From: Saccostrea echinata
Lineage: Eukaryota
Reading direction: 5' to 3'
Assembly (NCBI RefSeq): GCF_033153115.1
Contig: NW_026889772.1
Coordinates: 5,518,001-5,582,000, forward strand
Length of the DNA: 64,000 nt
Both the position numbers and the translations under genes were made by a program. Positions 47,293 to 50,499 of this stretch are shown piece by piece. Below the pieces are notes generated by a model. It had not been told where the DNA came from. It was given only the letters and a program-made list of their open reading frames with translations, and ran no database searches. The number at the start of each line of letters is the position of its first letter. Positions within the stretch are counted from its first letter, which is position 1.

Positions 47293-48973
47293 TTAATATT
47301 CGTATAAACATTCATATAAACCTGAAAAGTAGAAAAAAAAAAGTCTTTTATCTATGCATAATGTTGCCACAATTTCAATCATAATGAATTCCATTGATCA
47401 CGAATGCTCTATCTTCAAAGACAATTACAAAACATGAGTCTTTGACATCAGGTGTGTGATTGAACTAATTAATTAGTTGTTGTGTTAATGTCAAATAGGA
47501 CTTACCAATCTTTTGGTTTTTGTACAGTTGTGCATTTTCTTTGATTTGTTTACATAATTTACAACAGTGCTTTCTGTAATCGTCACAAAACAACTCGGGT
47601 TGGTTCGTGTAAAGACATTTCTGCCTCCAAGAGCAGTGCTCGTATTGTCCAAAGTCATCACACTCCTCACCTTGACCTGAAATATATCCACAATGATATG
47701 TATTGGTAAGAAATCGTAAACACCAAATACAAATATGTAATAGGATGAAGAAATAAATTCAAGTATTTGTCCAGCAAAATATGTAAAGGTTAGTAAAAGA
47801 TAAGAGACCATACTCAGTTAAACCCTGCAGTTATGCCCTACATGATACACATGTATGAACATGTCCATTAGGATGTGTGACAGACTAACTATAAGTGAAA
47901 ATAGATACCAGACAAGAACATATATGCTATATGAGCTGCTATGTAACCGTATGAAAAGAGACACAAATATATCCAGCATATATGCCAAGGTTAGGAAAGA
48001 TAGACACAAAACACAAATATGTTAGGCATGATATGTAATAGCTAGAGAAGGACACTAGACACAATCATGTCAAAAACGTGACGGTATGTAAGAATACACC
48101 TCAGAAAGATAAATATTCAACATGGCATGTAGATTTTGAAAAAAAATATATATATATACATACGAAAATATAATGGATTGATAAGAGAAATACCAGGCTA
48201 AAAATATACATGTATCAAGCCTATAATGTTTCTGTAAGAAGAAAATATATACCTTTAGTTACAAATTTATAGCTACATTAATTGTAAGGGTTATCAAAAA
48301 TATACACCATACATTAAGATATCTGGCATAAAATGGTACGGTTAGTATAAATGAAAGCTAAAAAAATATTCTGTATAGCATGTCACATATACAAAATATA
48401 ACAGTTGGTGAGGAAACGGTAGATTATGCAGCATAATCATTTAGTCTCTCGTGTTAAATCGTTCATCATTTCCAGTGCTTACATATTTTTTTCATTTTTA
48501 TGCAGTCACAACAAATTGCAATAAATTAAACTAATTCGTCTTTAAAACTCTTATTGTCGAAAGTATTCTCTGCTAACTATGATTTTAAAAAATATTATGA
48601 TTTAGAGCTTAACGAAAAATGTTGATGGGTACAAATTGATGGGGATTCTTATAACCATGTATGCCTTTCTTATATGTAGAATGTCTTTAATGTATGGCTC
48701 TATTGACTGTGTTTTTTGTGTATAAGTTTATGTATAGCTGTTTTATATTATCAGTATTTGAATTGTAAATTAAATGAATAAATAATTCAAAAAATTGTCT
48801 ATGATGACCAAAGAGAGAGATTGAGAGAGAGAGAGAGAGAGAAAGATGATTATGATGATGATGGTGATGTTTTACATTAGCCTCTCTTAGATATTAGGTG
48901 AGAGAGAAAGAAAGAGAGAGATGGAGTGAGAAGGGGAAATGATGTTTGCATTAGCTTCTTTTAAACATTAGGA

Positions 48974-49025
<52 letters not shown>

Positions 49026-49095
49026 ACTTCTACTCACCAGATATGATCGTCATAAAAAGTACACACATGATGACAGGAAAATACAGACGAGGCAT
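47293..49095 (-). CDS. Uncharacterised 85-aa secreted cysteine-rich peptide (8 Cys in mature part, PLAC-like CCxxC)
   Basis: Exons 49095-49038 (MPRLYFPVIMCVLFMTIIS), 47676-47506 and 47321-47293; both introns phase 1 with strong GTGAGT/GTAAGT donors and tttcAG acceptors. Probable non-coding exon ends at 49398 (acceptor at 49131). Confidence 0.8.
48812..49017. repeat. (GA)n and (GAT)n microsatellite cluster
   Basis: Three GA runs separated by a duplicated GATGTTT..CATTAGC spacer. Confidence 0.9.
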
Positions 49096-50499
49096 TTTCC
49101 ACACTTGTTGATTAGAAAGGATCAGAACAACTGTGAAATACTGTACAAAGGGATGGGATTATTCTTTGCCCTTGGACTCTTTATTTTGTTCACAGCTGGA
49201 CGTTTTATATTATCTAAAAAATAAATAAATAACGTTTATTATTGTCGTGTTATCCATCACATACTAGAGCATAGCCATGTACCATATTACATTTCATAAC
49301 ATTCGAAAGATTTATGAATTTGTTTTGTTTGAAACACATGTACAGTATCTCAGTAACTTTATAGATATCAAACAAATGTAATGAAAAACTTAATTACCTG
49401 ATCTCAGGTATCAGGGATCTCTGAGGACTCTGTTTACAGTTCTATTTTGATACTAGCATTTTGAACGTCTTAATTAGCGGTCGACTGAACATCGGTTTTC
49501 CTGTTTTAATAAGGTTCAGCATGGAACATCAAAAAATAAAATAAATTATTACATACATATGAATGATATATTTAAAAAAGAGAGATATAATTTCTTAAAA
49601 GATTTTCAAAATGATTAAAGCTGCTTAAATGAATTTGGGACTAAGGAGTAATTGTAGGTTAAGATAGGCCGTGTACATAAAAAATCTAACGTAAGATTCA
49701 GAACTGGTTACTCATCTCAATACATGTAGCCCATCATAATATTCATAATAAATAAATAAATAAATACAAATACAAAAATGGACGATTCTAAAGATCAAAA
49801 TGTATATATGCATAAATATTTAAAACCATTAACATTCAAAAAATTCAAAAATATTTTTCAAACATTATGTTTAAGGCTCTTTTAGAAAATATTATATGAG
49901 GAACTGTAAAATTATGTGAAAAGTAATTGTATTCACCGTCAGCTATTTGACCAATGATTCATCATTTATTACTAGTTACGATTTTATTGTTGAAGCTTGT
50001 TTTCTTAATTCTTGTGAATGTACATTAAACATTGTTTACAGGATTTTTCACAAACGAATTCAAACTCTAGTACTAATGAAAGATGTATTTTGTGTATGGT
50101 AGGCACAATCTTTACAATGTGCAACCATCTCATTAGTATCGACAATACACACATCCTATAGCAACTCTTCCAAATGAGTTGTCTTGCTACTATTCCACTG
50201 GATGTAAATGGGCATCTTCAGAGATAGGTAAAATATGATTTTTTTAATGTTAATTTTGTTTAACTTAAAGATTGGGGAAAGACCTTCTGCACATTTAAAG
50301 TACATAGTTTTATGACTAAATATTCGTATCTTTTGAACAATTGTTTGAAGTTCAGTTTTTGAAGGGTTACATCACAACCAACTCGCTATAGGTTGCATAC
50401 CTAACTGGTGAAAACTTTTGTTTCAGTGTCAATACTGATAGAAAGTTTATTATTTGAGTTCCATCTCTGAAAACTCATAAAATAATATTTCCTTTTTCA

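What the first reader, a model, noticed from the sequence alone, without database searches (positions are those of the whole stretch)
47293..49398. Hidden small secreted 8-cysteine peptide gene missed by the ORF track
Seen: splicing three - strand exons gives MPRLYFPVIMCVLFMTIISGQG-EECDDFGQYEHCSWRQKCLYTNQPELFCDDYRKHCCKLCKQIKENAQLYKNQKIGLYECLYEY* (85 aa). It has a hydrophobic signal and an even number of mature cysteines, C-X8-C-X5-C-X9-C-X6-CC-X2-C-X19-C; the eighth Cys comes from the tiny last exon, which supports the model. The CxD...Y...CCxxC part resembles a PLAC domain, but as a stand-alone peptide I cannot place it in a known family. Inference: a four-disulfide effector (defence peptide, protease regulator, pheromone or toxin-like).
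Basis: partly seen in the sequence, partly recalled or inferred. Interest (0 to 1): 0.72.

Follow-up and report, generated by a model that had tools for sequence, protein, structure and literature searches.

The report
Stand-alone PLAC-like secreted oyster peptide
A spliced, expressed gene in a shellfish (likely an oyster) encodes an 85-residue protein with a likely export signal and eight cysteines; it is probably a free-standing version of a small disulfide-locked module usually carried on large matrix proteases, and it likely acts as a signalling or regulatory peptide on a cell-surface partner that is still unknown.

Summary
The gene is real. Three GT-AG exons give 85 residues, and RNA contigs join both introns. 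It is single-copy. No curated family, near homologue or fold match was found; the most sensitive protein search never ran. A reciprocal-best paralogue 2.7 Mb away has the same signal exon plus module layout, but six cysteines: it lacks Cys40 and Cys81. The core is therefore six-cysteine, and those two likely form an added fourth disulfide. The core resembles PLAC (C-x-D start, aromatic-x3-CC-x2-C end; profile probability 79%, against 0.6% for ShK), but fails the Pfam PLAC model, and support from the peptide alone is weak (38 of 500 cysteine-fixed shuffles score as well). Two more predicted stand-alone PLAC-like peptides in the genome share its 15-residue loop. The PLAC-like profile weakly hits an ShKT-fold structure (E 0.0097). 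The mature peptide is not cationic and lacks the ShK Lys-Tyr dyad. Best reading: an undescribed secreted PLAC/ShK-superfamily ligand; target inferred, not shown. No earlier scan note described it.

The parts
49096..49215 (-). 5' untranslated region (transcribed at least to 49215; in-frame stop at 49161). A further non-coding exon ending near 49398 is possible but unconfirmed
   Evidence: RNA contigs X1, X2, X5. X1 contig stops at the AG at 49215-49214 with 4 letters unlaid
49038..49095 (-). Exon 1 coding part: start codon and hydrophobic, likely signal peptide (residues 1-19); ends in phase 1
   Evidence: RNA join
47677..49037 (-). Intron 1 (GT-AG, 1361 nt, holds CT microsatellites)
47506..47676 (-). 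Exon 2 (phase 1-1): PLAC-like six-cysteine core (Cys25, 34, 50, 57, 58, 61), extra Cys40, and predicted C-terminal helix
47322..47505 (-). Intron 2 (GT-AG, 184 nt)
47293..47321 (-). Exon 3 coding part: last 9 residues with Cys81, then stop
47194..47292 (-). 3' untranslated region with AATAAA at 47240 and 47201; likely overlaps the 3' end of the convergent GMC oxidoreductase gene

Best explanation
This spliced, single-copy gene encodes a likely secreted 65-residue peptide that is probably a free-standing, long-loop PLAC-like module (likely ShK-superfamily fold) with a likely added fourth disulfide, and it likely works as an endogenous ligand that binds a cell-surface or extracellular protein. 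Shown: three-exon transcript, complete frame, eight mature cysteines, a six-cysteine paralogue of the same layout in the DNA, a diverged transcript in a second species. Inferred: export and cleavage near Gly20; bonds Cys25-58, Cys34-57, Cys50-61 (by analogy with ShKT connectivity) and Cys40-81, which would staple the long C-terminal helix back to the core; origin by joining a signal-peptide exon to a phase-1 PLAC-like exon; action by binding rather than catalysis or membrane lysis, on an ion channel or receptor, as ShK-like neuropeptides are proposed to do.
For: RNA joins. Paralogue L002 is the reciprocal best hit, shares 15 invariant columns of 56 and beats 1000 of 1000 cysteine-fixed shuffles; it lacks exactly Cys40 and Cys81. 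Profile of the pair against 9 genome PLAC domains: probability 79%, E 1.6e-5; against 16 ShK domains: 0.6%. All six core Cys align across 18 modules. An aromatic residue sits 4 before the CC in 14 of 18 of them, window included, and in 0 of 16 ShK domains at the same offset. A phase-1 acceptor precedes 15 of 18 modules by a simple rule; the window's is phase 1 by RNA. L002 scores above 497 of 500 cysteine-fixed shuffles on a profile that leaves out the pattern-found locus. L059 and L050, found through the PLAC model and not through this peptide, have the same 15-residue loop and predicted signal exons. The 18-module profile hits ShKT-fold OspTx2b, E 0.0097; both language-model searches lean ShK at 0.86-0.87, a lead only. 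AlphaFold gives three helices, pLDDT 71. Net charge about -2, single copy.
Against: Pfam PLAC does not hit the peptide or L002 at E up to 10. The profile match covers only the last 16 columns. With composition correction the window peptide scores only 2.2 bits, and 38 of 500 cysteine-fixed and 12 of 500 full shuffles do as well; the stronger result (2 of 500) had no such correction and included a module found with a pattern taken from the query. Similarity to L059 and L050 is weak (probability 12%; 929 and 29 of 1000 shuffles as good). The tree is unresolved and does not group the stand-alone peptides. Disulfides were not read from any model, and exon 3 was not in the model. There are no tissue, peptide-level or binding data. 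Faster protein change than the neighbouring gene fits a defence or recognition role as well as a hormone.
Confidence: 0.45

Rival explanations
1. Fast-evolving defence or recognition peptide in mucus, mantle or haemolymph that binds a parasite, microbe or gamete protein, on the same PLAC-like scaffold.
For: In organism C, 3 of 4 listed changed codons alter the residue (L48Q, Y53F, R54P) against 5 of 29 in the neighbouring GMC exons, Fisher p 0.036. Its signal exon did not lay at 80% likeness. No near homologue among 5.8 billion proteins. Mussels have many lineage-restricted cysteine-rich defence peptides (PMC10138031, passages).
Against: Single copy with one distant paralogue; no tandem copy in the window, the 20 kb to its right or about 40 kb around L002. 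Not cationic. The codon counts are tiny and come from a cut table (138 rows not shown), and the control is a conserved enzyme.
Confidence: 0.25
2. Decoy or regulator of matrix proteases: a free PLAC-like module that competes with the C-terminal modules of ADAMTS-like proteases for a matrix or substrate site.
For: The best single non-paralogue match is a C-terminal module downstream of a HExxH metalloprotease gene (L069; 2 of 1000 shuffles as good; HExxH in L120), with the same six-residue spacing before CC. In ADAMTS7 a region that includes PLAC was needed to bind CTGF (PMC9035411, passage).
Against: L069 was found with a pattern taken from this peptide, so the match is partly circular. Profile probability is 62% over 19 columns. 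The long loop, extra cysteines and long tail differ from every protease module seen.
Confidence: 0.15
3. Not PLAC/ShK-related: an independent orphan cysteine-rich peptide whose CC-x2-C end is convergent.
For: No Pfam hit, weak corrected scores for the window peptide, partial alignments only.
Against: The paralogue scores clearly on the PLAC-like profile; C-x-D, the aromatic position and exon phase agree.
Confidence: 0.15

Closest known systems
PLAC domain (Pfam PF08686) of ADAMTS/ADAMTSL, papilin/lacunin and PACE4
   Same: Six Cys with C-x-D start and aromatic-x3-CC-x2-C end; phase-1 exon; extracellular.
   Different: Stand-alone behind a likely signal peptide; C2-C3 loop 15 instead of 8; C3-CC 6 instead of 8; two extra Cys and a long helical tail; fails the Pfam model.
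Single-domain ShKT peptides (ShK, OspTx2b, Cumia ShKL, Nematostella ShK-like2 neuropeptide)
   Same: Signal peptide plus one small helical disulfide module; the PLAC-like profile hits OspTx2b.
   Different: Ends CC-x2-C rather than C-x3-C-x2-C; no Lys-Tyr dyad; ShK profile probability 0.6%.
C-terminal cysteine modules of molluscan ADAMTS-like (M12B) proteases (L044, L069 in this genome)
   Same: CC-x2-C modules with variable loops; one has the same C-x6-CC spacing.
   Different: Those are tails of large proteases, with loops of 8-11 and six Cys.
Conotoxin framework XII (I4 superfamily)
   Same: Same order of eight cysteines, C-C-C-C-CC-C-C (PMC4278219, passage).
   Different: Pattern only. I4 precursors carry a propeptide after a Gla-rich mature peptide; here no such propeptide is evident and the conserved core has six Cys. 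No sequence comparison was run.
Mussel CRP-I and mytimycins
   Same: Small secreted bivalve cysteine-rich peptides.
   Different: CRP-I is a cationic C-C-CC-C-C knottin in a variable multigene family (PMC10138031); mytimycins have 10-14 Cys beginning with CC and an EF-hand tail, and are reported only in Mytilida (PMC8004829).

Membership tests
PLAC (PF08686) | Score above the Pfam cut-off (26.4 bits) | tested here: not met
   No hit at E up to 10 for the peptide or L002; neither is among the 25 genome matches (150 of 214 candidates scored).
PLAC (PF08686) | Six Cys, C-x-D start, CC-x2-C end | tested here: met
   C-x-D directly in 16 of 18 modules, window included.
PLAC (PF08686) | Spacing C2-x8-C3-x8-CC (9 of 9 genome PLAC domains) | tested here: not met
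   15 and 6 in the window and L002.
PLAC (PF08686) | C-terminal ancillary domain of a large protein | tested here: not met
   Complete 85-codon frame with upstream in-frame stop and three-exon contigs.
PLAC (PF08686) | Same fold and disulfide pattern | tested here: inconclusive
   Model of exon 2 only, pLDDT 71; the PLAC profile finds no solved PLAC chain to compare with.
ShKT (PF01549) | C-x3-C-x2-C C-terminal cysteines | tested here: not met
   CC-x2-C here; 16 of 16 genome ShK domains have 3,2 spacing.
ShKT (PF01549) | Profile match | tested here: not met
   (not among 81 matches at E up to 0.01).
ShKT potassium-channel toxins | Lys-Tyr dyad before the fourth core Cys | tested here: not met
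   Aligned by OspTx2b: the aromatic is present, the lysine is not. The dyad is neither necessary nor sufficient according to PMC6409789.
ShKT (PF01549) | Helical ShK fold, bonds 1-6, 2-4, 3-5 | tested here: inconclusive
   Three helices predicted; structure searches gave only generic helical matches, best Z 3.6.
Cationic bivalve antimicrobial peptides (CRP-I, mytimycin) | Family cysteine array, cationic charge, multigene variation | tested here: not met
   Arrays differ; charge about -2; one copy.
Conotoxin I4 (framework XII) | I4 signal peptide, C-terminal propeptide, Gla residues | not tested
   Only the cysteine order was compared with the paper's text.
Secreted peptide | Cleaved signal peptide, peptide found outside cells | not testable with these tools
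   Hydropathy only.

The most novel reading that the evidence does not exclude
Oysters have an undescribed family of free, long-loop PLAC peptides (at least four single-copy genes here, one with a propeptide and KK site) that act as neuropeptide- or hormone-like ion-channel or receptor ligands; PLAC is an ShK-fold offshoot that was released from proteases as a signalling molecule, and this member gained a fourth disulfide through a new last exon.
Probability: 0.25. Interest if true: 0.7.

Novelty: new variant of a known kind. Interest (0 to 1): 0.45.

Why it matters
PLAC is known as an accessory tail of large proteases with no assigned function of its own, and single-module ShKT peptides were reported as essentially absent from mollusc genomes outside one predatory snail (PMC6409789, Discussion). 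Free 6-8 kDa PLAC-like peptides would be the simplest reagents for solving the PLAC fold and finding what it binds. They would add a class of oyster signalling or defence molecules that gene callers and Pfam miss. The six- and eight-cysteine pair is also a compact case of disulfide gain by exon addition.

Tried and rejected
Pfam on exon 2 and L002: nothing. Word-seeded searches of 5.8 billion proteins with exon 2 and with L002: no candidate, only lengths of about 30-98 aa covered; longer forms were not searched. The HMMER search of 1.84 billion representatives never ran, so the range of the family in other animals is open. PDB sequence searches with exon 2 and with the pair: chance hits or none. 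Foldseek and VIA-align searches on two models: no informative match; this shows nothing about novelty of the fold. ADAMTS_C (PF23178) genome search: no match over the cut-off, window not hit. DNA patterns for more paralogues: 184 matches against 83 control, 100 listed, 47 inspected (30 returned loci and 17 picked by eye), one new module, L069; a tighter pattern gave 45 against 28, all listed, nothing new. L035 looked like a member but has a stop just upstream and no acceptor: rejected as chance. Genome searches with L059, L050 and L069 found only themselves and one EGF-like chance hit. L003 is a repeat-derived chance hit. Tree of 27 modules: unresolved. Rfam over 40-56 kb: nothing. No run is on record as RNA; the spliced joins themselves show RNA. 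No complex prediction was run, as no partner is proposed. Literature: (listings and abstract starts) showed no paper on stand-alone PLAC-like mollusc peptides; the library omits most subscription papers and no supplements were read, so peptide lists in supplements may hold it.

Full report
Observation. Residues 4-19 are strongly hydrophobic; one more Cys (11) lies in that stretch. Cysteine-rich frames occur by chance in this window (7 frames with 6 or more Cys in 40 aa), so I tested the gene with RNA. Five of six listed runs hold part of the stretch. Contigs skip intron 2 in 4 of 4 runs and in X5, and skip intron 1 in 4 of 4 runs (table 8). By the tool's 31-letter rule each join is bridged in 3 of those 4; X2 and X3 are one sample, and the runs come from two studies. 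X3 and X4 each hold all three exons in one contig. An in-frame stop at 49161 lies in transcribed 5' sequence, so the protein is not the tail of something longer. The DNA is single-copy in the 923-Mb assembly.

Database searches. Exon 2 has no Pfam hit, no word-seeded homologue of 30-98 aa, no PDB sequence match and only a weak ShK lean in the language-model atlas (0.87). The sensitive representative search could not be run. All searches used exon 2 alone (56 of 85 residues).

A paralogue defines the core. The own-genome search gave 3 matches of 5 scored: the gene itself, L002 (same contig, 2.7 Mb away, E 0.08) and a repeat. L002 finds the window back. It has a predicted signal exon ending in phase 1 and one module exon, 77 aa in all; I did not check it in RNA. 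The two share 15 of 56 columns, and the pair score beats all 1000 shuffles that keep the cysteines in place. L002 has six cysteines, spaced 9,15,6,0,2. It lacks the equivalents of Cys40 and Cys81. The simplest reading is a six-cysteine core plus one added pair, the second partner supplied by the tiny last exon. That is an inference from one comparison.

What the core resembles. The Pfam PLAC model finds 25 matches in the genome, 8 over the cut-off, none at these two genes. Against 9 of those PLAC domains the pair's profile gives probability 79% over the last 16 columns; against 5 tail modules of ADAMTS-like genes 62%; against 16 ShK domains 0.6%. In the 18-module alignment the six Cys and an Asp are invariant, partly by how the rows were chosen. 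An aromatic residue four places before the CC is present in 14 of 18, and at that offset in 0 of 16 ShK domains. Shuffle tests are mixed. Without composition correction the window peptide was matched by 2 of 500 and L002 by 0 of 500 cysteine-fixed shuffles. With correction, and leaving out the two L069 modules because that locus was found with a pattern from the query, the counts were 38 and 3 of 500 (ShK profile: 68 and 20). So the PLAC link is clear for the paralogue and weak for the window peptide alone. It is PLAC-like, not a PLAC member.

Other stand-alone modules. Two sub-threshold PLAC matches, L059 and L050, look like separate small secreted peptides: each has a predicted phase-1 signal exon, and L050 has a likely propeptide ending in KK. 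All 4 stand-alone candidates have 15 residues between core Cys 2 and 3, against 8 in 9 of 9 canonical PLAC domains and 8-11 in 5 protease tails. L059 has a 77% identical unnamed relative in a metagenome contig (P0001). Direct similarity between the two pairs is weak (probability 12%), and a tree of 27 modules on 33 columns neither groups nor excludes them. One family is possible, not shown.

Fold. The 18-module profile hits the sea-anemone ShKT-fold peptide OspTx2b (6buc, E 0.0097) and the PLAC-only profile does so at E 0.045. In that alignment the first Cys of CC matches ShKT Cys 4 and the last Cys matches ShKT Cys 5. With ShKT bonds 1-6, 2-4, 3-5 (PMC6409789, passage), this predicts Cys25-58, Cys34-57 and Cys50-61, leaving Cys40-81. 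AlphaFold of exon 2 gives three helices, the last one long (pLDDT 67 alone, 71 with the alignment). Structure searches returned only generic helical matches.

Clues to function. The mature peptide is slightly acidic (about -2 at pH 7) and single-copy, unlike cationic multigene mussel peptides (PMC10138031 and PMC8004829, passages). The ShK dyad lysine is absent. A second species (run X6) expresses a diverged version: of 4 listed changed codons 3 alter the residue, with no change listed at the cysteine codons between them, against 5 of 29 in the neighbouring GMC exons (p 0.036). The table was cut (138 rows not shown), so this is a hint of fast protein change, not a test of selection. Free ShK-like peptides can be neuropeptides, proposed to act on endogenous receptors (bioRxiv 10.1101/2020.05.28.121442, abstract and one Discussion section). 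I therefore rank an endogenous secreted ligand first (0.45), then a defence or recognition peptide (0.25), a protease or matrix decoy (0.15) and an unrelated orphan (0.15). No target was identified.

Comparison with print. PMC6409789 (passages and first part of the Discussion) states that single-ShKT secreted genes are absent from known mollusc genomes outside Cumia, with one snail exception. Six searches (listings only) showed no description of stand-alone PLAC-like peptides. The cysteine order equals conotoxin framework XII (PMC4278219, passage), which I treat as a pattern coincidence. PMC9035411 was seen as passages only. No supplements were read. Five look-ups in earlier scan notes found nothing on this peptide.

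Verdict. A real, unplaced gene; most likely a new stand-alone variant of the PLAC/ShK kind of module, function inferred. Orphan cysteine-rich peptides are common in bivalves, which caps the surprise; the free PLAC-like layout and the six-to-eight cysteine step raise it. Interest 0.45.

Noticed in passing
window 42205-47146 (+): GMC oxidoreductase gene, spliced in X1 and X6. Its last exon adds a roughly 390-residue Ser/Thr/Lys/Pro-rich tail that takes many indels between species.
   Followed up: partly
window 47146-48560: The GMC and peptide genes converge with stops 147 nt apart; contigs of X1 and X3 run across both. Low-depth contigs in the peptide's intron 1 reach 48521-48560, near a plus-strand AATAAA at 48520: a long antisense GMC 3' UTR or unspliced RNA; strand not shown.
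   Followed up: partly
window 9685-14668 (+): CAP-domain gene followed by an EGF-like and an ShK-like exon (read by eye, no Pfam hit), resembling molluscan CAP-ShK type II; an ShK-type module thus lies 33 kb from the peptide.
   Followed up: partly
L002:2332-1480 (-), G000:C23 near 8.29 Mb: Predicted 77-aa six-cysteine paralogue with signal exon, beside a Patched-like gene; no shared neighbours with the window seen.
   Followed up: partly
L059:307-1590 (+) and L112:7536-7587 with L050:1324-1560 (+): Two more predicted stand-alone long-loop PLAC-like peptides; the second looks like a prepropeptide with a KK site and an acidic mature part.
   Followed up: partly
L044, L069/L120: ADAMTS-like protease genes ending in several divergent CC-x2-C modules; in L044 three such exons could be alternative ends, and L069 ends in a hydrophobic, possibly GPI-type tail.
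   Followed up: no
window 15900-20429, 61395-63827, 21576-22725: Decayed LINE-type retroelement frames and a tandem repeat array.
   Followed up: no
G000:C84:952491-953365: Tandem repeat of about 42 bp that gave 13 of the 45 pattern matches.
   Followed up: no
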